Shown: positions 602 through 9,600, counted from the first letter of the stretch. The stretch is DNA of 64,000 nt from Gemmatimonadales bacterium (GCA_035309945.1 DATGEQ010000035.1:4292-68291), one strand, 5' to 3'. Numbers and translations: made by a program. The notes: generated from the sequence alone by a model not told the origin.

Positions 602-654
602 GAGTGGGCACTAAGCTCTAGGAACCGAGTGGCAACCGCCAGTCTCTTCGCCGC

Positions 655-693
655 TTAAAGACTCGCTCAAGCGTTTCTCAACCGATTTTCAGG
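655..693. promoter_or_regulatory. Four direct repeats at 11-bp period (TTAAag/CTCAag/CTCAac/TTCAgg), candidate OmpR/PhoB-family operator
   Basis: Repeat starts at 655, 666, 677 and 688, in an intergenic region. Confidence 0.45.
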
Positions 694-712
694 CGCCGGG
701 CCCGCGGATCCG

Positions 713-969
713 ATGCCGGTGCCATCCCCAAGCTGCGCGCGAGCCTCGCCGCGGCCATCGGCGCCGAATTCGAGATCTATACGCAGCCGCCGCGCGAGAT
801 GCTCATCCGCCGGCTCGGCCAGGCGCTCGCGCAGACCTCACGACAGGTGAACACGCTCGAGCGCCGGCTGGCGCCGGTGTTGCGCGGCACCGTGACCCGA
901 ATTCGCCGGGCCCTCGATGAGCGGGAGCGAGAAGAGCGGTTGCGCCTCAAGCGATTGAAAAGGCGTTAA
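713..969 (+). pseudogene. Small helical hypothetical ORF, apparently frameshifted near its start
   Basis: The frame ending TAA 967-969 reads IPKLRASLAAAIGAEFEIYTQPPREMLIRRLGQALAQ...KRLKRR with GC-rich third positions. It has no early in-frame start. ATG 713 is one base out of frame. Confidence 0.3.
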
Positions 970-1009
970 CAGCGCCTTCATGGAGGTTTTATCCCCTGGT
1001 CGTTATCCC
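966..1009 (+). promoter_or_regulatory. Candidate promoter of the cytochrome operon with 11-bp phased repeats
   Basis: TTAACA (966), TTCATG (977), TTTATC (988), then TATCCC at 1004, 16 nt after the last repeat start. SD GGAGG precedes ATG 1038. Confidence 0.4.
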
Positions 1010-1037
1010 TCTCCTACAGCACCCATAGGGAGGTGCA

Positions 1038-1667
1038 ATGCGTGGTCTCGTGATCGCGATGTTCGTCGGCGCTGTGTCGGTTAGCGGTGGCTGCCAGCAG
1101 GCGGCACCGAAGGAAAACGGGTCGCCTCCGGGACGGCCCGGCGGTTTGAACCGGCAGGACGAGCTGTTGCTCGCTGCCGCGAATGTCGCGCTGCCGCCTC
1201 CGGGCATTACGGCTTCCGATCTTCCCGAGCCGAATTCGATGGGTGCCAAGCTGGTGGCCACTTACTGCGGACAATGCCACAACATGCCGACGCCTCAGAT
1301 GCACAGCGCCACCGATTGGCCGGGCGTCGCGCGCCGGATGTGGCTGCGTATGGGACTTTTGTCGCCGTCGTTGGGGGTGAAGGTGCCGACGATGGCTGAT
1401 CGATTCGCGATGCTGGATTATCTCACGGCAAATGCTTTGAAGGTGAGCGGCGCGACGCTGCCCGCGGGCCGTGGTCGCGAGGCGTTCGCCGAGATCTGCA
1501 GCCGTTGTCACGCGCTGCCCGATCCGCGCGTGCACTCGAGCGCCGATTGGCCGACGGTGTTCGCGCGCATGGAGCAGAACATGATTCGGATGCAGGTGCC
1601 GCCACCGACGAGAGAGCAGACGTCCGACCTGTTGCTCTATCTGCAGACAGTTGCGTCACGCCCATGA
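1038..1667 (+). CDS. Diheme c-type cytochrome, probable lipoprotein
   Basis: Signal peptide ending VSGGC. Two CxxCH motifs (CGQCH, CSRCH) in two similar ~60-aa repeats. SD present. Confidence 0.85.
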   Translation: MRGLVIAMFVGAVSVSGGCQQAAPKENGSPPGRPGGLNRQDELLLAAANVALPPPGITASDLPEPNSMGAKLVATYCGQCHNMPTPQMHSATDWPGVARRMWLRMGLLSPSLGVKVPTMADRFAMLDYLTANALKVSGATLPAGRGREAFAEICSRCHALPDPRVHSSADWPTVFARMEQNMIRMQVPPPTREQTSDLLLYLQTVASRP

Positions 1668-1725
1668 AGACGGCGCGCTCGCTGGAATGTTCGATGACGT
1701 GTAGCATCGCGGCCGGGAGGAATCC

Positions 1726-3330
1726 ATGAAAGTTGCACGCTTCGCCATCGGTGCCCTTGTGTTGTTCGCGCTCGGCGCGTGTACCAACGACAAGATCGTC
1801 TACCGCGACCGGCCATCCTTCAATCCACCCCCCGACAGTGTCAACGGATTCCTCGGTTACTTCACGGTCTCGACGAAACAGACCAGCTGCGGCAACTGCC
1901 ACGTCGGGGTGCAGCAGGAGTGGGCGTCGACAAAGCACTCGCATGCGTGGGCCGATCTCCAGGGATCGGGACACGCCGCGAAGTACTGCAACTCTTGCCA
2001 CAGCGTGTCCGAGCTAGGCAATGCCGTTGGACACTCCGCGGGCTATTCGCTCAAGCCCGATTCCGCGTATCAGGACGTGCAGTGTGAAAGCTGCCACGGC
2101 CCGGGGTTCACGCACGCGGATAACCCCGACATCAACGCCAACTGGCCGCTTGCGCGGATTCACGTCGACACGGGCGTGACCACGTCGTGCAGCGGCTGTC
2201 ACTCGGGCGCTCACGATCCGTTCATCGAGCAGTGGAAGGAGTCCGGCCACGGCTCGGGTCCGGGGTTTGCCGTTGCCGCGACGAACGCGAGCTGCGCGCC
2301 CTGCCACGAAGGCCGGACCGCGATGGCGGTGAAGTTTGGCGAGAACGCGAACTTCGTGGAGAAGAGCAGCGCCACGCCCGAGCGGATCGGCTGCGTCACC
2401 TGCCACAATCCGCACGGCTCGCCGAACACCGCGCAGCTGCGCGCGCCGCTCGAGACCCCCACGCGCGACCAGTTGTGCGTCACGTGCCACTCGCGTAGCG
2501 GCACGCCGCCCTGGAGCGTGGCCGCGTCGGGTGGGACCTCACGCGGCGCCCACGGCGCGCAGGGACTCCTGCTGCTCGGCGAGAATGTGGGCTGGATCCC
2601 GCCGAACTTCACCTACGACACGAGCCAGATCGTGAGCACCCACGGGACCTCCGCAAATCCGAGGCTGTGCGCGACCTGTCACGTGGTGCGCGCGACGATC
2701 ACCGACAAGATCACGGGAGCGTTCACGTTCCAGAGCGTCGGACATACGTTCGACGCCATTCCGTGTCCCGACTCGTCCGGTATCCCGGGCCCATGCTCCA
2801 GCGCGGTCGCGCCCGACACCGTCCACGATTTCAGCGCCTGCGCGACCAGCGGCTGTCATAGCGCCGCCGCCACGGCGCGCAGCGCGTATGTCACGTTCAA
2901 AGGCCGGCTCGACAATCTGCTGGACCAAATCTGGACCGATAGCAACGGCAACGGCATCGTCGATTCGACCGACGGCGGGCTGATCCCGCAGCTGGTCGCC
3001 CGGACGCAGCGGCCCACCGCGACCGCGGCCGATACGGCGGCGATCAATTTCGGCACCACCACGACGACGGTGGCAAAGGGTGCGCTGTGGAATGCGGCGC
3101 TCGCGGCCACCGAAGACCGTCCATACTTCTTGAGCGGCAAGATCTTGAATAGAACCTTCGCCACGCACATGGCGTCGGGAAACGGCGTCCACAACCCGTT
3201 CCTGCTCGAGGCCCTGTTGACCTCGTCCATCGACGCGCTGCATTCGACCTACAGCCTGCCGACGCCGCCGATCAGTCTCCAGGTGCAGGCCATCCGGCCG
3301 CCCGGCGTCAAGACGCGGGCTGGACAGTAG
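1726..3330 (+). CDS. Multiheme c-type cytochrome lipoprotein (8 CxxCH + 1 CX4CH)
   Basis: Lipobox LGAC. Motifs CGNCH, CNSCH, CESCH, CSGCH, CAPCH, CVTCH x2, CATCH, CATSGCH. The VQCESCHGPG segment is c554-like. SD GGAGG. Confidence 0.92.
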   Translation: MKVARFAIGALVLFALGACTNDKIVYRDRPSFNPPPDSVNGFLGYFTVSTKQTSCGNCHVGVQQEWASTKHSHAWADLQGSGHAAKYCNSCHSVSELGNAVGHSAGYSLKPDSAYQDVQCESCHGPGFTHADNPDINANWPLARIHVDTGVTTSCSGCHSGAHDPFIEQWKESGHGSGPGFAVAATNASCAPCHEGRTAMAVKFGENANFVEKSSATPERIGCVTCHNPHGSPNTAQLRAPLETPTRDQLCVTCHSRSGTPPWSVAASGGTSRGAHGAQGLLLLGENVGWIPPNFTYDTSQIVSTHGTSANPRLCATCHVVRATITDKITGAFTFQSVGHTFDAIPCPDSSGIPGPCSSAVAPDTVHDFSACATSGCHSAAATARSAYVTFKGRLDNLLDQIWTDSNGNGIVDSTDGGLIPQLVARTQRPTATAADTAAINFGTTTTTVAKGALWNAALAATEDRPYFLSGKILNRTFATHMASGNGVHNPFLLEALLTSSIDALHSTYSLPTPPISLQVQAIRPPGVKTRAGQ

Positions 3331-3349
3331 ATCGAATAGCAGACATCTG

Positions 3350-5227
3350 TTGATCATGCTGGTGCTCCAGCAGACGGCAGTCGGCCCGCCGCCCTTACCG
3401 GGCGGCGTGGCTGCTGTTTTACGCTTCTTCTTCAATCTGCCGCAGTGGTTCCAGATCGGCGGGTTCTTTGTCGGCCTTGCGGTAGCAGCCTGGCTCATCG
3501 TGTACGTGTGGCGCCGCAGGCTGCTCATCGTCGGCTGGATCAAGACGCGGCAGCGGGGCGTGAAGATCGCGCTGGTATCGGTCGCGGCCGTCGCCGTCCT
3601 CGGCGGCACCGGCGTTGGCACCGTCAGCTGGAACTACATGCAACACGACAACGCGTTCTGCACCGGCTGCCACATCATGAAGGTGCCGTTTCAGCGGTTC
3701 ACCGGCTCGAAGCACGATTCGCTCAGCTGCCACTCGTGTCACCAGCAGTCGATCTTCGCGAGCATGCGGCAACTGTATCTCTGGGTCGCCGATCGTCCGC
3801 AGAGCATCAAGATGCACGCCAAGGTGCCGACCCCCGTTTGCGCCGCCTGCCACGTCCAGGGAGACAAAGAGAAGGAAAAGTGGAAGCGCATCGCGACGAC
3901 GGCGGGTCATCGCGTCCACCTGGAGTCTGATTCGAGCGCGTTGCGTAACGTGCAGTGCACCACCTGCCACGGCCTCGAGGTGCATCGCTTCGTGCCGGCG
4001 GATTCTACGTGCGGGCAATCAGGGTGCCACAGCAACGTGCAGATTCGCCTGGGCAAGATGGCGGGGCAGACAGGCTTCCATTGCATTGCCTGCCACCAAT
4101 TCACGGCCGAGGTGCCCCTGCTCGCCACGCGCGATTCGGCGGCGGGAACGCTGCGCCCCGGCGCGCACGAGTGTTTCAGCTGTCACCAGATGCGCGAGAA
4201 GCTGGCGGACTTCGATCCCTCGCGTGATCCGCACCGCCAGACCTGCGGCATGTGCCACAATCCGCACCAGCAGACCCGCCCGGCCGATGCGCTCAAGAGC
4301 TGCGCGTCGGCGGGGTGCCACGTCGACTGGCGCGACGAGCCCTTCCACACGGGCCAACCGCACAGCCGAGTCGCACAGCAGTGCGAGCTGTGCCACCAGC
4401 CGCACGCCGCCAGCGTCGACGCGAGCGACTGCGCCGGTTGTCACGCGGCGGTCAAGCAGCGCACACACGGGCACGTGAATCCGCCGCAGGCGTTCGACAC
4501 CACGCGGGCGTTGCGGCGAGTTTCCTTCAACGCGATTCCCGACGTGGAGCTCAAGGGCAAGGGCGATGCGAACCCACCGCGCGCCGCCCCCGCTTCCCGG
4601 CTCCCAACACCCGCCGACAGCTTCTCGCACGACCGTCATAAACAACTCGCCTGTCTCACTTGCCACGTCACCCGCCAGCCCAATGCCAGCCTCACATTCG
4701 CGCCGCCACGCGGGTGCCAGATCTGTCACCATCAGACCCCCGCCGCGAGCGATTGCGCCAAGTGCCATACGCCCGATCAACTCGCACCGGCGCACGCCGA
4801 GACCGTCGCAGTCGCCGTGGCGAACCATGCGGCGCGTGCGCGGGCTGTGGCATTCTCACATACGACGCATAGCCAGCTGCGCTGCACGCGCTGCCACACG
4901 ACGGCGGTTTCACTGGATCCCGCCGACTCCGTCAAAGGGTGTGCCGCCTGCCACGACGATCACCATGGCCCGCGACGGGACTGCGCGAGCTGTCACACCG
5001 GTGCCGATATCCAGGCTGCGCATCGTGACTCGGTCGACACGCATGCTGCCTGCGACGCCTGCCATCGCGAAGCTACCGTCGCGCGGCTCGTGCCGGATCG
5101 CGGACTGTGCATCACGTGTCACGCCAAGCAGCGCGATCACTACGCGGCGCGCGAATGCACAGCCTGTCATTTCCTCGCGACTCCTGACGAGTACCGTGCG
5201 CACTTGCGGAAGGTGGGGGGCGCGTGA
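3350..5227 (+). CDS. NapC/NirT-like membrane-anchored multiheme cytochrome c (18 CxxCH + 2 CX4CH)
   Basis: Two N-terminal hydrophobic helices, then NapC-like WNYMQHDNAFCTGCH, followed by 19 further heme motifs. Confidence 0.9.
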   Translation: MIMLVLQQTAVGPPPLPGGVAAVLRFFFNLPQWFQIGGFFVGLAVAAWLIVYVWRRRLLIVGWIKTRQRGVKIALVSVAAVAVLGGTGVGTVSWNYMQHDNAFCTGCHIMKVPFQRFTGSKHDSLSCHSCHQQSIFASMRQLYLWVADRPQSIKMHAKVPTPVCAACHVQGDKEKEKWKRIATTAGHRVHLESDSSALRNVQCTTCHGLEVHRFVPADSTCGQSGCHSNVQIRLGKMAGQTGFHCIACHQFTAEVPLLATRDSAAGTLRPGAHECFSCHQMREKLADFDPSRDPHRQTCGMCHNPHQQTRPADALKSCASAGCHVDWRDEPFHTGQPHSRVAQQCELCHQPHAASVDASDCAGCHAAVKQRTHGHVNPPQAFDTTRALRRVSFNAIPDVELKGKGDANPPRAAPASRLPTPADSFSHDRHKQLACLTCHVTRQPNASLTFAPPRGCQICHHQTPAASDCAKCHTPDQLAPAHAETVAVAVANHAARARAVAFSHTTHSQLRCTRCHTTAVSLDPADSVKGCAACHDDHHGPRRDCASCHTGADIQAAHRDSVDTHAACDACHREATVARLVPDRGLCITCHAKQRDHYAARECTACHFLATPDEYRAHLRKVGGA

Positions 5228-6714
5228 AGCGACTCGTCGCGCTCGTGGCTCTGCTCGCGGCTCCGCTGGCGGGGCAGGGGTATCGGCTCAAAGTCGATAA
5301 TCGCGTTCAGGCGATCAGCTACCGCGGGCTCGAGCTCGACAGCATCGCGGTGACCGATACCATATCGGGACCCAGCGGCGGTCCGACAACGCCTGACGGC
5401 TTCGCGGTCCGTTGCCCCAGCGGCGCGGCTTACTGCCTGTACTTCCGTCCCGGGCCCGTCAGGCACGGCGCGCCGCTTGTGACCACCGCTGACCTCTCAG
5501 TGTGGGGCTTCGGCGTAAGCGGCCTGAGCGCCCACGTGACGGCGCGTGGCGCCCGGGACCTGACCGGCGACAACGCGTGGCCCGGCTCGGATCCGGCGAT
5601 CCAGCTGCTCACCGGTTACGCGGAATACAACCGCGAGCGGATCACGGTCCGCTTGGGCCGCGACCTGAACTACAACCGGCTCGGCACGATCGGGTTCGAC
5701 GGCGGAAGCATTACGCTGCGCGATGGACGGCGCGGGCTCGACGCGTCGCTCTACGGCGGCTGGGGACTCGCGCGCGGCGCGGCGCTGCCGGTGACCAGTC
5801 CCGTCGTGAATCCGATCAACGACTTCCAGCCGAGCCAGCGCCAGCTGCTGCTCGGTGTCAGCGCCGGTTGGTCGGGCAGCCACGGCGATTTGCGTGGCGA
5901 GTACCTGCGCGAGGTGGATCCGCATACCGACTACTTCGTCTCGGAGCGCGTGGGTTTTTCGGGCGAGCTCCGGCCGGTGCCACGCTGGAGTCTGGCCGCC
6001 GGTGCCGATTATGACCTGGCCGCCGGATTGTGGGGCAGTGCCGAAGCGACGTTGGGGTACGCCACGCCTGCCGTGACGAGCGCGGTCGGCGTCCGCCGGT
6101 ACAGGCCGCATTTCGATCTTTGGACGATCTGGGGCGCGTTCAGTCCCGTGCCCTACAACGCCATTCAGGCGCAAGTCACGGTCAAGGCCATGCCGCACGT
6201 GGAGATCCGCGGGCGCGGCGAACGCTATCGCTTCGATGACGCCGGCGTGTCCACGCCGCTCGTTGAGGTCGAGCAATCGGGTTGGCGCGGCGAGCTGGGT
6301 CTCACGGCAACGCCGCGACCGGAATGGACGATCGACGCCGGCTACACGCGCGAATTCGGACCCGGGGCGGCCGTGGCGGGAACGAGCGCGAGCATCACGT
6401 ATCAGCCAAGCAAGTTGTATGCGATCACCGCACACGGCGCGGCAATGGACCGGCCGCTCGAGCTCCGCTTCAGTGAGTCGGTCCTGCATCTCTACGGGAT
6501 TGAAGGCCGCATCCAGCCGCAGCCGGGACTCGCGCTCGAGCTCGGCGCCGAGCGATATGCGGAACAGCGGCAGCGGCCCGATCCCGCGGCCATGGACTGG
6601 AGTCAGTGGCGCGTCACATTGCGCGCGGTGTTCTCAATTGGCAGCAGCGACGACGATCTCCGGAACCTGCCGCCGGCCACGCATCGGATGCCCGGCGGGC
6701 GGGCACAACGATGA
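5224..6714 (+). CDS. Outer-membrane beta-barrel (porin-like) protein
   Basis: Signal peptide. Many amphipathic strands with alternating hydrophobic/aromatic residues (e.g. WRGELGLTATP, WRVTLRAVF). GTGA/ATGA overlaps with both flanking cytochrome genes. Confidence 0.72.
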   Translation: MKRLVALVALLAAPLAGQGYRLKVDNRVQAISYRGLELDSIAVTDTISGPSGGPTTPDGFAVRCPSGAAYCLYFRPGPVRHGAPLVTTADLSVWGFGVSGLSAHVTARGARDLTGDNAWPGSDPAIQLLTGYAEYNRERITVRLGRDLNYNRLGTIGFDGGSITLRDGRRGLDASLYGGWGLARGAALPVTSPVVNPINDFQPSQRQLLLGVSAGWSGSHGDLRGEYLREVDPHTDYFVSERVGFSGELRPVPRWSLAAGADYDLAAGLWGSAEATLGYATPAVTSAVGVRRYRPHFDLWTIWGAFSPVPYNAIQAQVTVKAMPHVEIRGRGERYRFDDAGVSTPLVEVEQSGWRGELGLTATPRPEWTIDAGYTREFGPGAAVAGTSASITYQPSKLYAITAHGAAMDRPLELRFSESVLHLYGIEGRIQPQPGLALELGAERYAEQRQRPDPAAMDWSQWRVTLRAVFSIGSSDDDLRNLPPATHRMPGGRAQR

Positions 6715-7895
6715 TCGCCCCCGCCGCTCTTCTCGCGCTCGCGCTGCTGCAGCAGCCTGTGCAGGGCTTCGATCATCTGCAGCACAAGAACCTGTTCCCC
6801 TCGTGCAGGACGTGCCATGCCGGCGCGCTGCAGAACGGCGTGTCGCTCTGGCCCGATGCGCGTTCCTGCGCGACGTGCCACGACGGTACGATCCAAAAGA
6901 CCGTCAACTGGCAGCCGCCGCCACCGCGCCGGATGAATCTCCGCTTCGATCACGTCATTCACGCCACGAAGGCGAAAGACAAGGCGCCGGCGTGTGTCAC
7001 CTGTCACGCGCGCGCCGGCGAGCCGCGCATGGCCGTGCGCGAGCCTGTGGTGGAGCGGTGTCTCACCTGTCACGGGATTCAAACGGCCCATCTTGCGGCG
7101 CCGGACACCGCGTGCGCCACGTGCCACGTTCCACTCGTCCGTGCCGCCACGCTCACGCGCGACGATATCGCGCGCTTTCCGGCGCCGCCGTCGCATGCGA
7201 CGCCCGATTTCTTGAGCCGGGCCGGCCACGGCGCCGCCTCGCGGCAAACGATGGGCAACAGCTGCGCGACGTGCCACGCGCGCGAGTTCTGCTATCAATG
7301 CCACGCCGGCTCGGCGCCGCCACGGGCAATCGCGTGGCTCGCGTCCGACCTCCGCGCGACCGCAATCGGCGCGCGGGCGGCGCCCCCGAGCCACGGCGCC
7401 AATTTCGCCGATCGTCACGCGACCGAAGCAGCCGCGTCCACCGCCCGTTGCAGCGGTTGTCACGTGCGCGCCGACTGCCTGGAATGCCATCGACCGAGCG
7501 CCGGCTCGCGCGGCGCCGGCTACCATCCCGACGGATTCCTCGCGCGGCATCCGGCGTCGGCCTATGCGCGGCAAGCCTCCTGCAGCGACTGCCACAACGT
7601 CGGATCGTTTTGCACGAGCTGTCATGCGCGCGCCGGCCTCACGGCCAAGGGCGTATTGCGCGCGGGCTATCATGATGCGCGGAGCTTCTTCCTCGCGGGG
7701 CACGGCCAAGCCGCGCGGCAGGGACTCGAGTCGTGCGTCAGCTGTCACGCCGAGCGCGACTGCCTGACCTGTCACTCCGCGCTGGGCGGGCGGCGCTTCG
7801 ATCCCCACGGGCCCGGGTTCGACGCGGCGAAGCTTCGCCGCACCGCCTTCCCGATGTGCACCGTCTGCCACGGCGCGAGCGTCCCGACGCAGTAA
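6711..7895 (+). CDS. Secreted 14-heme c-type cytochrome (c3-like N-terminus plus repeated diheme modules)
   Basis: Start ATG 6711 overlaps the porin stop. Signal peptide MIAPAALLALALLQQPVQG. 14 CxxCH motifs. Confidence 0.9.
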   Translation: MIAPAALLALALLQQPVQGFDHLQHKNLFPSCRTCHAGALQNGVSLWPDARSCATCHDGTIQKTVNWQPPPPRRMNLRFDHVIHATKAKDKAPACVTCHARAGEPRMAVREPVVERCLTCHGIQTAHLAAPDTACATCHVPLVRAATLTRDDIARFPAPPSHATPDFLSRAGHGAASRQTMGNSCATCHAREFCYQCHAGSAPPRAIAWLASDLRATAIGARAAPPSHGANFADRHATEAAASTARCSGCHVRADCLECHRPSAGSRGAGYHPDGFLARHPASAYARQASCSDCHNVGSFCTSCHARAGLTAKGVLRAGYHDARSFFLAGHGQAARQGLESCVSCHAERDCLTCHSALGGRRFDPHGPGFDAAKLRRTAFPMCTVCHGASVPTQ

Positions 7896-7899
7896 AGAT

Positions 7900-7943
7900 C
7901 TCACACGCGTTTCACGCCGGCTTCAAGGCGGCGGTCGTAATTT
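7900..7943 (+). promoter_or_regulatory. Candidate promoter: three 11-bp phased repeats plus -10 TAATTT
   Basis: CTCACA 7900, TTCACG 7911, TTCAAG 7922. TAATTT at 7938-7943. Confidence 0.5.
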
Positions 7944-7949
7944 CTACGC

Positions 7950-8094
7950 GGTCACCGGATGGGTGGCCGATGCGGGATCCGACGCAAAGTCTTCGGCCGC
8001 ATGTTCACCGGGCCTGAACCGGTATGGGAACGCGAAATCCGAAGACCTCCAGCCCTCGCTCGTCTCCAACTATGAGCGGGGGCTGACGTTTTTT
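7950..8094 (+). ncRNA. Candidate ~145-nt structured small RNA or cis-regulatory leader (family not recognised)
   Basis: Predicted +1 near 7950 coincides with hairpin 7950-7968. Long hairpin 7989-8046. Ends in an intrinsic terminator. Confidence 0.4.
8050..8094 (+). terminator. Intrinsic terminator
   Basis: 12-bp stem CAGCCCTCGCTC/GAGCGGGGGCTG (one G-U), followed by ACGTTTTTT. Confidence 0.75.
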
Positions 8095-8136
8095 CACGCA
8101 CGATTCAACGGCAATTCACGGCCCAGGTGCGAGGTT
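8093..8136 (+). promoter_or_regulatory. Candidate hsp20 promoter with three 11-bp phased TTCA repeats
   Basis: TTCACG 8093, TTCAAC 8104, TTCACG 8115. GAGGTT (xAxxxT) at 8131, the same offset as at 7938. Confidence 0.45.
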
Positions 8137-8181
8137 TGATCGGCTGCAGAACCTGCCCGATTCTCACAAGGAGGTAACATC

Positions 8182-8661
8182 ATGTTCGGAGTTACTCGCA
8201 GAACCCGCGACCCCTGGGCCGAGCTGCTCTTCAATCTTGAGCGCCGCATGGGTCGTATGCTCAACGAGCCGCTCACGGGGTATGAGTGGCCGCTGGGCGA
8301 GGTGACCACCGCCTGGACGCCGGTGGTGGACATCTTTGAGGAGCCGGAGCACGTGCGCATCGTCGCGGAGATCCCGGGTGTGAAACCCGAGGCCGTGAAG
8401 ATCCTCGTCGAGAACAATGTGCTCACGATCCAGGGGACCAAGGAGCAGTTCGCCGAGGAGAAGGCCGAGAAGATCCATCGCTATGAGCGGACCTACGGAG
8501 CCTTCGAGCGGAGCTTCACGCTCCCCACCACGGTTGATGCGGAGCACATCAAGGCCAGCTACGAGGCTGGCGTGCTCACGCTGATTCTCCCCAAAGTGGA
8601 GAAGGCGAAACCGCGGGAGGTGAAGCTCGAGGTTGTGCCCGAAAAGAAGCTGAAAGCCTGA
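8182..8661 (+). CDS. Hsp20/alpha-crystallin small heat shock protein
   Basis: PVVDIFE..AEIPGV, ER.YGAFERSFTLP, ASYEAGVLTLILPK. Strong SD AAGGAGG. Confidence 0.95.
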   Translation: MFGVTRRTRDPWAELLFNLERRMGRMLNEPLTGYEWPLGEVTTAWTPVVDIFEEPEHVRIVAEIPGVKPEAVKILVENNVLTIQGTKEQFAEEKAEKIHRYERTYGAFERSFTLPTTVDAEHIKASYEAGVLTLILPKVEKAKPREVKLEVVPEKKLKA

Positions 8662-8681
8662 TCACCCGCGGGCACAAGACA

Positions 8682-8716
8682 GCCCCCGCCGCGCAAGCGA
8701 CGGGGGCGCTGTGTTT
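8682..8716. terminator. Hairpin terminator between convergent hsp20 and DUF2892 genes
   Basis: GCCCCCG-c-CGC-GCAA-GCG-a-CGGGGGC stem with a GCAA tetraloop. Confidence 0.65.
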
Positions 8717-8722
8717 GACGCT

Positions 8723-8920
8723 TCAGCAGCTGCTGATACCGAATAGCGTGTATAACGGGCACATCCGAAACAGCGCGGTGCCGAGGAAAATCAGGCCGAT
8801 GAAGCCGACGGCGAGAGCAACGAGCGGGCGGTCTTGCATGGCCGCCGAGTTCAGCAGCAGGACGATGCCGACGAAGCCACGAACGCGCGCATCGCGTAAT
8901 CCGACGTTTCTGGATGACAT
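8723..8920 (-). CDS. DUF2892/YgaP-like small membrane protein
   Basis: MSSRNVGLRDARVRGFVG...GTALFRMCPLYTLFGISSC (N.G..D..R and CPLY motifs). Confidence 0.85.
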   Translation of the reverse strand: MSSRNVGLRDARVRGFVGIVLLLNSAAMQDRPLVALAVGFIGLIFLGTALFRMCPLYTLFGISSC

Positions 8921-8926
8921 GGGGGC

Positions 8927-8970
8927 AATGTCGCATCGGCACTGTGAACCACGCCGCAATGGATGATGAA
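8927..8970 (-). promoter_or_regulatory. Candidate promoter of the DUF2892 gene with 11-bp phased repeats
   Basis: Minus strand: TTCATC (8970), TTGCGG (8959), TTCACA (8948). GACATT 16 nt after the last repeat start, then 6 nt to the ATG. Confidence 0.45.
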
Positions 8971-9179
8971 TTCCTCTTCACGTCCCGGACGCGCCTACGC
9001 GTTATGCGAGCAGCTACAGTGATGCCGAGCTCGACGACTGGGCGGCGCGGATTCGGCGGGGGCTGGAACACGGACGCGACGTCTACGTTTATTTTGACAA
9101 CGACCCACTCGCACACGCGCCGCGGAACGCCCGCGCGCTCTCGACTCGCCTGGGAATCGTCACCGATGGAAGAACGTAA
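8970..9179 (+). pseudogene. C-terminal remnant of a DUF72 (YecE-like) gene
   Basis: Frame not in the ORF track: LHVPDAPTRYASSYSDAELDDWAARIRRGLEHGRDVYVYFDNDPLAHAPRNARAL...TAA 9177-9179. It is bounded upstream by in-frame TGA 8967-8969 and has no start codon. Confidence 0.75.
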
Positions 9180-9600
9180 CGCAACCGTTGCCTGTCCATT
9201 CTGCCAGACGCTGAACCGCGTGGATCTCGCGCGGCTCGAACAGCACCCCAAGTGCGGCAACTGCGGCAGGCCGATCCTGCTCGACCGTCCTGTCGCGGTA
9301 TCGGACGAGAACTTCCAAACGGTTACGACCGACACGACCGTGCCGGTGCTCGTCGATTTCTATGCGGATTGGTGCGGGCCCTGCAAGATGATGGCGCCGT
9401 TGCTCGACGATGTCGCGCATCGCCGCGCGGGCGAGATGCTCGTGCTCAAGCTCGATACCGACCGCAATCCCGCCACCCAACAGCGCTTCGGGGTGCGCGG
9501 CATTCCGACGCTGATCGTCTTTCGGGGCGGCAAGGAAGTGGCACGCCGCGTCGGCGCCGTCCCGCCGGCCGAGCTCGACGCCTTCCTGAAGGAGATCTAA
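9166..9600 (+). CDS. trxC: Thioredoxin 2 with N-terminal zinc finger
   Basis: CPFC...CGNC zinc-finger pairs and WCGPC active site. Start placed at ATG 9166. Confidence 0.92.

What the first reader, a model, noticed from the sequence alone, without database searches (positions are those of the whole stretch)
655..8970. Shared 11-bp-phased YTHA repeat promoter architecture links the cytochrome operon, a candidate sRNA, hsp20 and DUF2892
Seen: triplets of repeats exactly 11 bp apart at 966/977/988, 7900/7911/7922, 8093/8104/8115 and, on the minus strand, 8970/8959/8948 (middle copy degenerate). In each case a -10-like hexamer (TATCCC, TAATTT, GAGGTT, GACATT) starts 16 nt after the last repeat start. 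Known: OmpR/PhoB-family regulators bind direct repeats one helical turn apart that replace the -35 element, e.g. Bacillus PhoP TT(A/T/C)ACA. Inference: one response regulator, possibly redox/anoxia-responsive, co-controls the electron-transfer operon and the stress genes. The motif is short and I found it by eye.
Basis: partly seen in the sequence, partly recalled or inferred. Interest (0 to 1): 0.62.

Follow-up and report, generated by a model that had tools for sequence, protein, structure and literature searches.

The report
Phased TTCA promoter boxes, stress regulon
Five promoters in this soil Gemmatimonadales genome share three TTCA boxes spaced one DNA turn apart in place of a -35 element. 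They belong to a family-wide stress and low-oxygen-type regulon, most likely switched on by an OmpR-type regulator that is partnered with a haem sensor kinase resembling the one that controls dormancy in the tuberculosis bacterium.

Summary
[C/T]TCA triplets at an exact 11-bp period give 5 matches in the window against 0.07 expected. The whole genome has 15 at period 11 and 0-5 at other periods that are not multiples of 3. In 412 kb of related loci the count is 38 at period 11 and 0-1 at every other period.

A -10 element (TAnnTT) sits 16 nt after the last box, and there is no -35. In 26 of 125 arrays an ATG lies exactly at +50/+51. These are leaderless genes, and they place the transcription start about 7 nt after the hexamer.

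The arrays before the cytochrome operon, the small RNA, hsp20 and DUF2892 are conserved in orthologous positions.

The likely binder is an OmpR-family regulator on another contig. Its own leaderless promoter carries the array in about 25 genera. Arrays occur only in the family that has this regulator, and they vanish in genomes that lost it (p = 1e-5).

The regulator's upstream partner is a kinase whose GAF domain matches the haem domain of M. tuberculosis DosT/DosS, with the haem ligand residues kept.

Other targets are USPs, a CBS protein, a nitroreductase, a flavodoxin and a NirK-like protein, so the regulon looks dormancy-like.

Binding and the signal are inferred, not shown. The small RNA is new to Rfam.

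The parts
655..698 (+). Four-unit array (TTAA, CTCA, CTCA, TTCA at 655/666/677/688) with a decayed -10 (GCGGAT, 704-709). Probably a relic promoter.
   Evidence: It is homologous to the arrays L008:2517 and L004:2445. In L008 and L010 that array drives a leaderless flavodoxin-domain gene. In the window only a start-less 3' remnant of V-ATPase subunit D follows.
966..1009 (+). Promoter of the multihaem cytochrome operon. Units at 966/977/988, with a weak extra unit TTGA at 955. The -10 is TATCCC at 1004-1009 and the predicted TSS is near 1016. SD GGGAGG lies at 1027-1032 and the ATG at 1038.
   Evidence: 22.5 bits. Orthologous arrays with -10 TATCCC/TATTCC/TATCTC occur in L001, L003, L004, L006 and L010.
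1038..7895 (+). Target operon of five genes: cytochrome c (1038-1667), multihaem cytochromes (1726-3330 and 3350-5227), a protein with no Pfam match (5224-6714), and a multihaem cytochrome (6606-7895).
   Evidence: Pfam. The array lies upstream of the first or second gene in 10 related loci.
7900..7943 (+). Promoter of the small RNA. Units CTCA/TTCA/TTCA at 7900/7911/7922 and -10 TAATTT at 7938-7943. It is the best-scoring array in the genome (31.4 bits).
   Evidence: Conserved in L002, L004, L006, L007, L009, L010, L012, L023, L029, L030 and L034.
7944..8095 (+). Conserved small RNA of about 145 nt, with a predicted TSS near 7950. It has a 5' hairpin, a long stem whose internal loops are invariant (CCGCAUGUUCA / GAACGCGAAAU), an unpaired CCUCC, and an intrinsic terminator with a T-run at 8089-8094.
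   Evidence: Alignment and fold (6 pairs with compensatory changes in 12 sequences). The covariance model finds one copy per genome in 6 of 9 sampled genomes of the genus, and the core stem in other genera. There is no Rfam match.
8093..8136 (+). hsp20 promoter. Units TTCA x3 at 8093/8104/8115 and -10 GAGGTT at 8131-8136, with a predicted TSS near 8143. The first unit overlaps the T-run of the small RNA terminator.
   Evidence: 29.9 bits. An array lies upstream of an hsp20 homolog at 24 array positions in the related loci and this genome.
8182..8661 (+). hsp20 (alpha-crystallin family), a target gene.
   Evidence: Pfam PF00011, E 1e-24.
8927..8970 (-). DUF2892 promoter. Units TTCA/TTGC/TTCA at 8970/8959/8948 and -10 GACATT at 8932-8927. 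The ATG is at 8920, which is +50, so the gene is leaderless.
   Evidence: 18.6 bits. There are 13 orthologous DUF2892 genes with arrays, many with the ATG at +50.
8723..8920 (-). YgaP-like transmembrane protein (DUF2892), 65 aa, a target gene.
   Evidence: Pfam PF11127, E 2e-14.

Best explanation
The arrays are the operator and promoter elements of one regulon that is specific to a family of Gemmatimonadales. Each promoter has three [C/T]TCA units at an exact 11-bp period. They lie at about -50, -39 and -28 relative to the start. A -10 TAnnTT begins 16 nt after the last unit. There is no -35 and no extended -10, so RNA polymerase should need an activator bound on one face of the helix.

The most likely activator is the OmpR-family response regulator encoded at contig C47:25686-26369 of this genome. 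It is made from its own array-bearing leaderless promoter, which would give positive autoregulation.

Two kinases flank it. Upstream is a soluble kinase whose GAF domain is homologous to the haem-binding GAF-A of M. tuberculosis DosT/DosS. Downstream is a membrane HAMP kinase with no sensor domain.

Inferred logic: loss of O2, or binding of NO or CO, or a redox change at the haem, leads to phosphorylation of the regulator. The regulator then binds in tandem to the three units and recruits polymerase.

The genes switched on in this genome are the multihaem cytochrome operon, a new small RNA, hsp20, DUF2892, tandem universal stress proteins, a CBS protein, a NirK-like copper protein, an AhbD-like radical SAM enzyme and a sigma-54 activator. 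In relatives the targets also include nitroreductase, flavodoxin, YceI, BON and HypB genes.

Shown: the arrays, their phasing, the -10, their conservation, the leaderless geometry, and the phyletic link to the regulator and kinase. Inferred: binding, activation, and the signal.
For: - Non-random phasing.
- Independent -10 at +38 to +43, and no -35 or TGn.
- An ATG spike at +50/+51 in 26 of 125 distinct arrays.
- Arrays conserved upstream of hsp20 (24), the regulator (22), DUF2892 (13), the cytochrome operon (10) and the small RNA (about 10).
- The regulator has an ortholog at 72-95% identity in about 85% of genomes in the family.
- Its upstream region in about 25 genera reads TTCA-N7-TTYA-N7-TTCA-N12-TAnnnT-N6/7-ATG.
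- Arrays run at 0-16 per genome inside the family and at control level (0-2) in all other families of the phylum. The reversed-pattern control is about 0.
- Of 72 family genomes, 53 of 61 with the regulator have arrays, against 2 of 11 without it (Fisher p = 1.2e-5). The losses are independent, in five genera.
- Genomes without the regulator keep hsp20, but with no array. Some have a sigma-54-like promoter instead.
- The other array-linked regulator (contig C23) has no ortholog in the 60 other genomes searched.
- The GAF kinase matches DosT 2vzw (E 3e-41) and DevS 2w3d. His115 and Tyr137 align with DosT His147 and Tyr169.
- That kinase lies directly upstream of the regulator in 28 of 30 loci.
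- The Pho system is separate and has no arrays.
- Three direct repeats at 11-bp spacing are documented for the OmpR-family regulators ArcA (PMC4173790) and Streptomyces PhoP (PMC2275107).
Against: - No binding or expression data exist.
- Only four bases per unit carry information, which is fewer than the 6-7 typical of OmpR-family half-sites.
- An odd number of units does not fit a simple dimer.
- Eight of 61 family genomes with the regulator show no array under the strict pattern.
- Joint loss of regulator and arrays could reflect loss of a whole gene island rather than a regulator-site dependency. The hsp20 genes that survive without arrays argue against that only in part, because they may be paralogs.
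- The window's own -10 hexamers for hsp20 (GAGGTT) and DUF2892 (GACATT) are weak.
- The GAF domain's haem binding is inferred from homology and two aligned residues.
Confidence: 0.7

Rival explanations
1. The arrays are real operators, but a different DNA-binding protein binds them. It could be another of the eight OmpR-type regulators or an unrelated winged-helix protein. The C47 regulator would then be only one more target gene.
For: - No binding data exist.
- The genome has eight OmpR-family regulators.
- The regulator gene carrying an array shows only that it is a target.
- Co-loss could be island loss.
Against: - The C23 regulator has no orthologs in the 60 other genomes searched.
- The PhoB-like regulator sits with pstSCAB and has no arrays nearby.
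- Only the C47 regulator was shown to track the arrays across 72 genomes and five independent losses.
- Autoregulation of the cognate regulator is the usual pattern in this family (general knowledge).
Confidence: 0.15
2. The protein bound at the arrays is a repressor rather than an activator. The sites cover -50 to -18 and would occlude polymerase until a signal releases the protein.
For: - ArcA, which also uses three direct repeats at 11-bp spacing, acts at icdA as a repressor (PMC4173790).
- The array position overlaps the polymerase footprint.
Against: - The promoters have only a -10, with no -35 and no TGn, so they should be weak on their own.
- The arrays sit at one fixed distance upstream of the -10, as in class II activator sites. 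They do not lie over the -10 or the TSS, where the ArcA sites at icdA lie (-12 to +21, PMC4173790).
Confidence: 0.1
3. The TTCA units are the recognition element of an alternative sigma factor (a -35-like element with upstream copies), or they are a chance or compositional pattern.
For: TTCA resembles the start of TTGACA. The motif is short and was found by eye.
Against: - The spacers from unit to -10 are 12 and 23 nt from the ends of the last two units. Neither fits a 16-19 nt sigma-70-type spacer.
- The units carry similar information; the first is the weakest because its first base is C or T about equally.
- Shuffles, other periods and the reversed pattern all give about zero matches.
Confidence: 0.03

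Closest known systems
PHO boxes of PhoB/PhoP, especially Streptomyces coelicolor PhoP direct repeat units (G(G/T)TCAYYYR(G/C)G, 11 nt; class II operators have three units) (PMC2275107)
   Same: Both use an OmpR-family regulator and head-to-tail repeats at an exact 11-nt period. Both have a TCA core, sites with three units, and sites that lie at or replace the -35 of activated promoters.
   Different: This is not the phosphate regulon. This genome has a separate phoB-phoR-pstSCAB locus without arrays. Only four bases per unit are conserved here. The number of units is almost always exactly three, and the distance to the -10 is fixed.
ArcA direct-repeat sites of E. coli (PMC4173790)
   Same: ArcA is an OmpR-family regulator of the aerobic-to-anaerobic switch. 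Sites with three repeats at 11-bp centre-to-centre spacing predominate, and binding to the third repeat is cooperative.
   Different: The ArcA core is TGTTA. ArcA acts at icdA as a repressor over -12 to +21. It is driven by the quinone-sensing ArcB, not by a haem-GAF kinase.
DosS/DosT-DosR (DevSR) dormancy system of Mycobacterium tuberculosis (PMC4082495)
   Same: The sensor GAF domain is homologous (E 3e-41), with the proximal His and distal Tyr aligned. The target gene classes found here are an alpha-crystallin Hsp20, several universal stress proteins, a nitroreductase, a CBS protein and the regulator itself. From general knowledge, these match the classes in the DosR regulon.
   Different: The output regulator here is OmpR-type (winged helix, direct repeats). 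DosR is NarL/LuxR-type and, from general knowledge, binds a palindrome. The kinase here has one GAF domain and a HisKA dimerisation domain. A second, membrane HAMP kinase and a respiratory oxidase are in the same locus. The regulon also covers a multihaem cytochrome operon and a small RNA.
CusRS/CopRS heavy-metal two-component systems (NCBIfam TIGR01387/TIGR01386)
   Same: These are the best-scoring named subfamilies for both the regulator (231 bits) and the membrane kinase (234 bits).
   Different: Both scores fall below the curated cut-offs (279 and 293 bits). The kinase aligns only from position 165 of the model, so it lacks the periplasmic metal-sensing domain. No metal-efflux genes are among the targets.

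Membership tests
OmpR/PhoB-family class II activator site | Direct (head-to-tail) repeats spaced one helical turn apart (10-11 bp) | tested here: met
   The period is exactly 11 bp. Other periods give background counts.
OmpR/PhoB-family class II activator site | The site overlaps or replaces the -35, and the promoter keeps a -10 but lacks a -35 consensus | tested here: met
   TAnnTT lies at +38 to +43. There is no information at the -35 or TGn positions. The ATG spike at +50/+51 fixes the TSS.
OmpR/PhoB-family class II activator site | A cognate regulator with receiver and winged-helix domains is present and linked to the sites | tested here: met
   The C47 regulator matches OmpR-family models over its full length. 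Its closest solved structures are PrrA, DrrD and MtrA. It is autoregulated and its presence tracks the arrays.
OmpR/PhoB-family class II activator site | Phosphorylation-dependent binding of the regulator to the repeats, and activation of transcription | not testable with these tools
   This needs EMSA or DAP-seq and reporter assays.
Pho regulon (PhoB/PhoP PHO box) | The boxes precede pstS and other phosphate-scavenging genes, and the regulator is the one encoded with phoR and pst | tested here: not met
   The phoB-phoR-porin-pstSCAB locus on C30 has no array of 8 bits or more within 12 kb. The C47 regulator scores 209.7 bits against the PhoB cut-off of 296.
DosS/DosT-type haem GAF sensor kinase | A GAF-A domain homologous to DosS/DosT, with the proximal His and distal Tyr | tested here: met
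   E 3e-41 to 2vzw and 1e-35 to DevS. His115 and Tyr137 align with DosT His147 and Tyr169.
DosS/DosT-type haem GAF sensor kinase | Binds haem and responds to O2, NO or CO | not testable with these tools
   This needs expression of the protein and spectroscopy.
DosR (DevR) regulon | A NarL/LuxR-type regulator that binds a palindromic Dos box | tested here: not met
   The regulator is OmpR-type, and the sites are direct repeats.
Bacterial small RNA gene | Its own promoter, a conserved structure with covariation, an intrinsic terminator, and no conserved reading frame | tested here: met
   Loop indels are not multiples of 3, and an in-frame stop occurs in L012. Expression was not tested.

The most novel reading that the evidence does not exclude
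A DosS/DosT-type haem gas sensor has been wired to an OmpR-type regulator. The regulator reads a strict three-unit, 4-bp-core operator, which would mean an odd-numbered oligomer on DNA. This creates a dormancy and anoxia regulon in soil Gemmatimonadales. The regulon turns on a multihaem outer-surface electron conduit, a NirK-like enzyme and a previously unknown small RNA when oxygen falls. It would be an independently evolved analogue of the mycobacterial dormancy switch, and it would give the first regulatory handle on anaerobic respiration in this uncultured group.
Probability: 0.4. Interest if true: 0.7.

Novelty: new variant of a known kind. Interest (0 to 1): 0.58.

Why it matters
Gemmatimonadales are abundant in soil and almost entirely uncultured. 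I found no paper on their promoters or regulons.

This work gives a testable operator, a candidate regulator with two kinases, and a list of about 17 promoters in one genome. The promoters connect a large multihaem cytochrome operon to classic dormancy genes.

If the haem-GAF kinase is the input, the cytochrome conduit would be predicted to be an anoxia-induced respiratory route.

It would also show that the DosS/T sensor module can be coupled to a different output family while controlling a similar set of genes.

The strict three-unit architecture is a clean system for asking how OmpR-family proteins occupy an odd number of sites. The small RNA is a new family that is co-regulated with hsp20.

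Tried and rejected
- Chance or compositional origin was rejected by shuffles, other periods and reversed-pattern controls.
- The Pho regulon was rejected. There is a separate phoBR-pst locus without arrays.
- The C23 regulator as binder was rejected. It has no orthologs in the 60 other genomes searched.
- A copper or heavy-metal sensor reading of the regulator and kinase was not adopted. Scores are below the family cut-offs and the periplasmic domain is missing.
- A sigma-factor -35 reading was rejected on spacing.
- A fourth unit was looked for on either side of the triplet and is not present in general.
- A coding reading of the small RNA (an MFTG... reading frame) was rejected. The frame is not conserved.
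- Rfam gave nothing for the small RNA.
- Target prediction for the small RNA was not attempted beyond noting the conserved unpaired CCUCC.
- My ORF-based gene caller is crude (79% coverage), so downstream gene assignments for a few low-scoring arrays (C94, C80, C113 70236) are unreliable.


Full report
**Organism and genes**

The window is C35:4292-68291 of a 3.07-Mb, 65.8% GC assembly in 120 contigs, 95% complete. Relatives fetched with the last cytochrome of the operon are almost all soil Gemmatimonadales MAGs.

Genes in the finding's range, from Pfam:
- An amino-acid permease starts at 601 on the minus strand.
- A five-gene cytochrome operon spans 1038-7895.
- hsp20 is at 8182-8661.
- A 65-aa YgaP-like/DUF2892 membrane protein is at 8920-8723 (minus strand).
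- A thioredoxin 2 gene follows at about 9166-9600.

**Observation**

The stated hexamers lie 16 nt after the last unit. The four-unit array at 655-691 is also present.

The pattern is far beyond chance:
- In the window there are 5 matches against 0.07 in shuffles.
- In the genome there are 15 arrays at period 11. Other periods not divisible by 3 give 0-5.
- A weight-matrix scan at 18 bits or more gives 17 hits at period 11 and 1-3 at control periods.
- In 412 kb of related loci there are 38 arrays at period 11 and 0-1 at every other period.

Within the 64-kb window no other site reaches 10 bits.

**Anatomy**

I built a matrix from 52 distinct arrays.
- Information is confined to [C/T]TCA in each of exactly three units. 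The first unit is C or T about equally. The second and third are T.
- There is no fourth unit on either side.
- A -10 element TAnnTT sits at +38 to +43. It was not part of the search pattern, so it is independent evidence that these are promoters.
- The positions where a -35 or a TGn extension would lie carry no information.

Across 125 distinct arrays the ATG trinucleotide spikes at +50/+51 (26 cases) against a background of 0-3 per position nearby. A second broad hump lies at +69 to +74.

The spike corresponds to leaderless genes. In this genome these are the response regulator, the radical SAM gene and DUF2892. In L008 a flavodoxin gene is another example. This is indirect evidence.

**Conservation at the four named targets**

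- Arrays with -10 TATCCC, TATTCC or TATCTC precede the cytochrome operon in L001, L003, L004, L006 and L010.
- The pair of arrays about 200 nt apart after the operon is kept in L004, L006, L009, L012 and L023. It is also kept in L029 and L030, where the upstream gene is different.
- Clustering the genes downstream of 135 array hits scoring 18 bits or more gives these counts: Hsp20 24, the response regulator 22, DUF2892 13, first or second cytochrome gene 10, tandem USP 3. There are also smaller sets for flavodoxin, nitroreductase, YceI, DUF5661, BON and HypB-like genes. About ten hits have no ORF downstream and correspond to the small RNA.

**The regulon in this genome**

The targets are:
- the small RNA;
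- hsp20;
- the cytochrome operon;
- DUF2892;
- two tandem-USP genes 3.8 kb upstream of the window;
- a CBS protein;
- a NirK-like copper protein;
- a TIGR04053 radical SAM/SPASM protein related to haem b synthase AhbD;
- a sigma-54 activator;
- a lipoprotein;
- a small membrane protein followed by a second OmpR-type regulator on contig C23;
- the regulator-kinase pair on C47.

**The regulator**

The gene at C47:25686-26369 encodes a 228-aa OmpR-family regulator. Its closest solved structures are PrrA, DrrD and MtrA.

In this genome the array ends so that TACTCT is followed by six bases and then the ATG. The same layout recurs upstream of its orthologs in about 25 genera: (C)ATGAAG, then three units, then TAnnnT, then an ATG at +49 to +53.

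Orthologs at 72-95% identity occur in 61 of 72 sampled genomes of the family. Outside the family only weaker homologs (61-70% identity) occur, in a few genomes.

A strict array pattern gives 0-16 matches per genome inside the family. In all eleven other families of the phylum it gives 0-2, which is the level of the reversed-pattern control.

Inside the family, 53 of 61 genomes with the regulator have at least one array (mean 4.5). Only 2 of 11 genomes without it do (mean 0.36). Fisher p is 1.2e-5. The regulator-less genomes lie in genera that also contain regulator-positive, array-positive genomes (g1, g3, g9, g10, g21). The association therefore does not rest on a single event.

G005, from the window's own genus, lacks the regulator, the arrays, the small RNA and hsp20.

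G035, G131, G077 and G101 lack the regulator but keep hsp20 homologs. Their upstream regions contain no array (best score 6 bits or less). G077 and G101 carry a sigma-54-like TGGCAC-N5-CTGC instead.

The C23 regulator has no ortholog in the 60 other genomes searched, so it cannot be the general binder. The PhoB-like regulator sits in a phoB-phoR-porin-pstSCAB locus with no arrays.

**The sensor**

Prompted by earlier scan notes on related genomes, I examined the gene upstream of the regulator. C47:24390-25628 encodes a soluble GAF-HisKA-HATPase kinase.

Its GAF domain matches the haem GAF-A domain of M. tuberculosis DosT (2vzw, E 3e-41) and of DevS/DosS (2w3d, 2y79, 4ynr). His115 and Tyr137 align with DosT His147 (proximal ligand) and Tyr169 (distal). 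Residue roles are from PMC4082495.

This kinase lies directly upstream of the regulator in 28 of 30 regulator loci. The other two loci are cut by contig ends.

Downstream of the regulator lie a HAMP-HisKA-HATPase membrane kinase without a sensor domain and a haem-copper oxidase subunit II.

The inferred signal is therefore O2, NO, CO or redox state. This fits the target list, which reads like the DosR regulon in its gene classes.

**The small RNA**

Downstream of the 7900 array, conservation begins at about the predicted TSS (7948-7951).

Twelve full-length homologs fold into three elements:
- a 5' hairpin;
- a long stem with invariant internal loops;
- an intrinsic terminator.

Six pairs show compensatory changes. 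An unpaired CCUCC precedes the terminator. The U-tract of the terminator abuts or overlaps the first unit of the hsp20 array.

A covariance model finds one copy per genome in 6 of 9 sampled genomes of the genus. The central stem alone occurs in four genomes of other genera. There it is also preceded by a TAGGTT/TAGGCT -10, and it carries an inserted CCCCUGAGGAGGGG hairpin.

Rfam has no match. Its function is unknown. Occlusion of the ribosome binding site through the CCUCC is a guess.

**The 655 array**

Its units align with the arrays at L008:2517 and L004:2445. In L008 and L010 that array drives a leaderless flavodoxin-domain gene.

In the window the -10 is GCGGAT. What follows (619-969) is an open frame without a start codon that matches only the last 53 residues of V-ATPase subunit D. 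A fuller homolog lies next to the cytochrome operon in L018.

I read this as a deletion scar with a relic promoter. Read-through into the operon is possible.

**Comparison with what is known**

Mechanistically this is an OmpR/PhoB-type class II site. Three repeats at 11-bp spacing are documented for ArcA (PMC4173790) and for class II PHO operators of Streptomyces PhoP, whose unit also contains TTCA (PMC2275107).

It is not the Pho regulon. It is not a DosR regulon in the strict sense either, because the regulator family and site type differ.

I found no paper on Gemmatimonadota promoters, this regulator or this small RNA.

An earlier report of this scan on another Gemmatimonadales genome reached the same reading. 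That is a lead, not independent proof. The tests here were made on this genome and on newly fetched loci.

**Verdict**

It is a new variant of a known kind of system. Binding, the direction of control and the signal remain to be shown.

Noticed in passing
window 619-969 (+): An open frame without a start codon matches only the C-terminal 53 residues of V-type ATPase subunit D (PF01813 positions 144-196 of 196). It looks like a deletion remnant. L018 has a homolog adjacent to its cytochrome operon.
   Followed up: partly
window ~8960-9179 (+) and ~9166-9600 (+): The long ORF 8914-9600 appears to be two things. From memory, a C-terminal piece resembles DUF72 (...DVYVYFDND...); this was not scanned on its own. 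A thioredoxin 2 with an N-terminal zinc ribbon follows (Pfam residues 93-228). A weak CcsR1 Rfam hit (E 0.05) at 9222-9301 lies inside the thioredoxin gene and is probably spurious.
   Followed up: no
G000 C47:24328-24390: One array on the minus strand (24371) sits 19 nt from the ATG of the haem-GAF kinase gene on the plus strand. That ATG is preceded by TAGGTT-N6. A single array may therefore serve two divergent promoters, one of them leaderless. In relatives the divergent array drives a USP gene. Here about 145 nt of non-coding sequence follow before the convergent CBS gene.
   Followed up: partly
loci L040-L068, upstream of the regulator gene: A conserved (C)ATGAAG lies 10-12 nt before the first unit. 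It forms an inverted half-site (TGAAG...CTTCA) with that unit. The DUF2892 promoter of the window has the same GTGAAG (8981-8976, minus strand).
   Followed up: no
L073, L076, L079 (genome G035): In a genome that lacks the regulator, three hsp20 paralogs share a different conserved upstream element (TTGACAA-N6-GTACAT...TCTTG). It appears to be another operator.
   Followed up: no
G000 C86:1137, C27:2760, C85:10936, C12:99214: AT-rich GATC-containing repeat runs (ATCATTGATCA...) turned up as low-scoring false positives of the matrix scan. They match the 21-bp GATC-rich arrays that another report of this scan described in this genome.
   Followed up: no
L013:8051 (-), L029/L030 upstream of the small RNA, L035/L038 downstream of it: Secreted Met/Gln-rich proteins (MQQM... 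repeats) repeatedly neighbour the small RNA, and one of them has its own array.
   Followed up: no
G129:C85:87-130 kb, G147:C9:12-51 kb, G137:C5:247-339 kb: In some relatives 7-10 arrays cluster within 40-90 kb. The regulon is therefore often organised as a genomic island. In this genome there are six arrays in C35:384-13261 and five on C47.
   Followed up: no
G000 contig C23 (3046 bp): A short contig carries an array, a Gly/Phe-rich small membrane protein and an OmpR-type regulator that has no ortholog in the 60 other genomes of the family searched. It may be a recent acquisition or a binning stray.
   Followed up: partly
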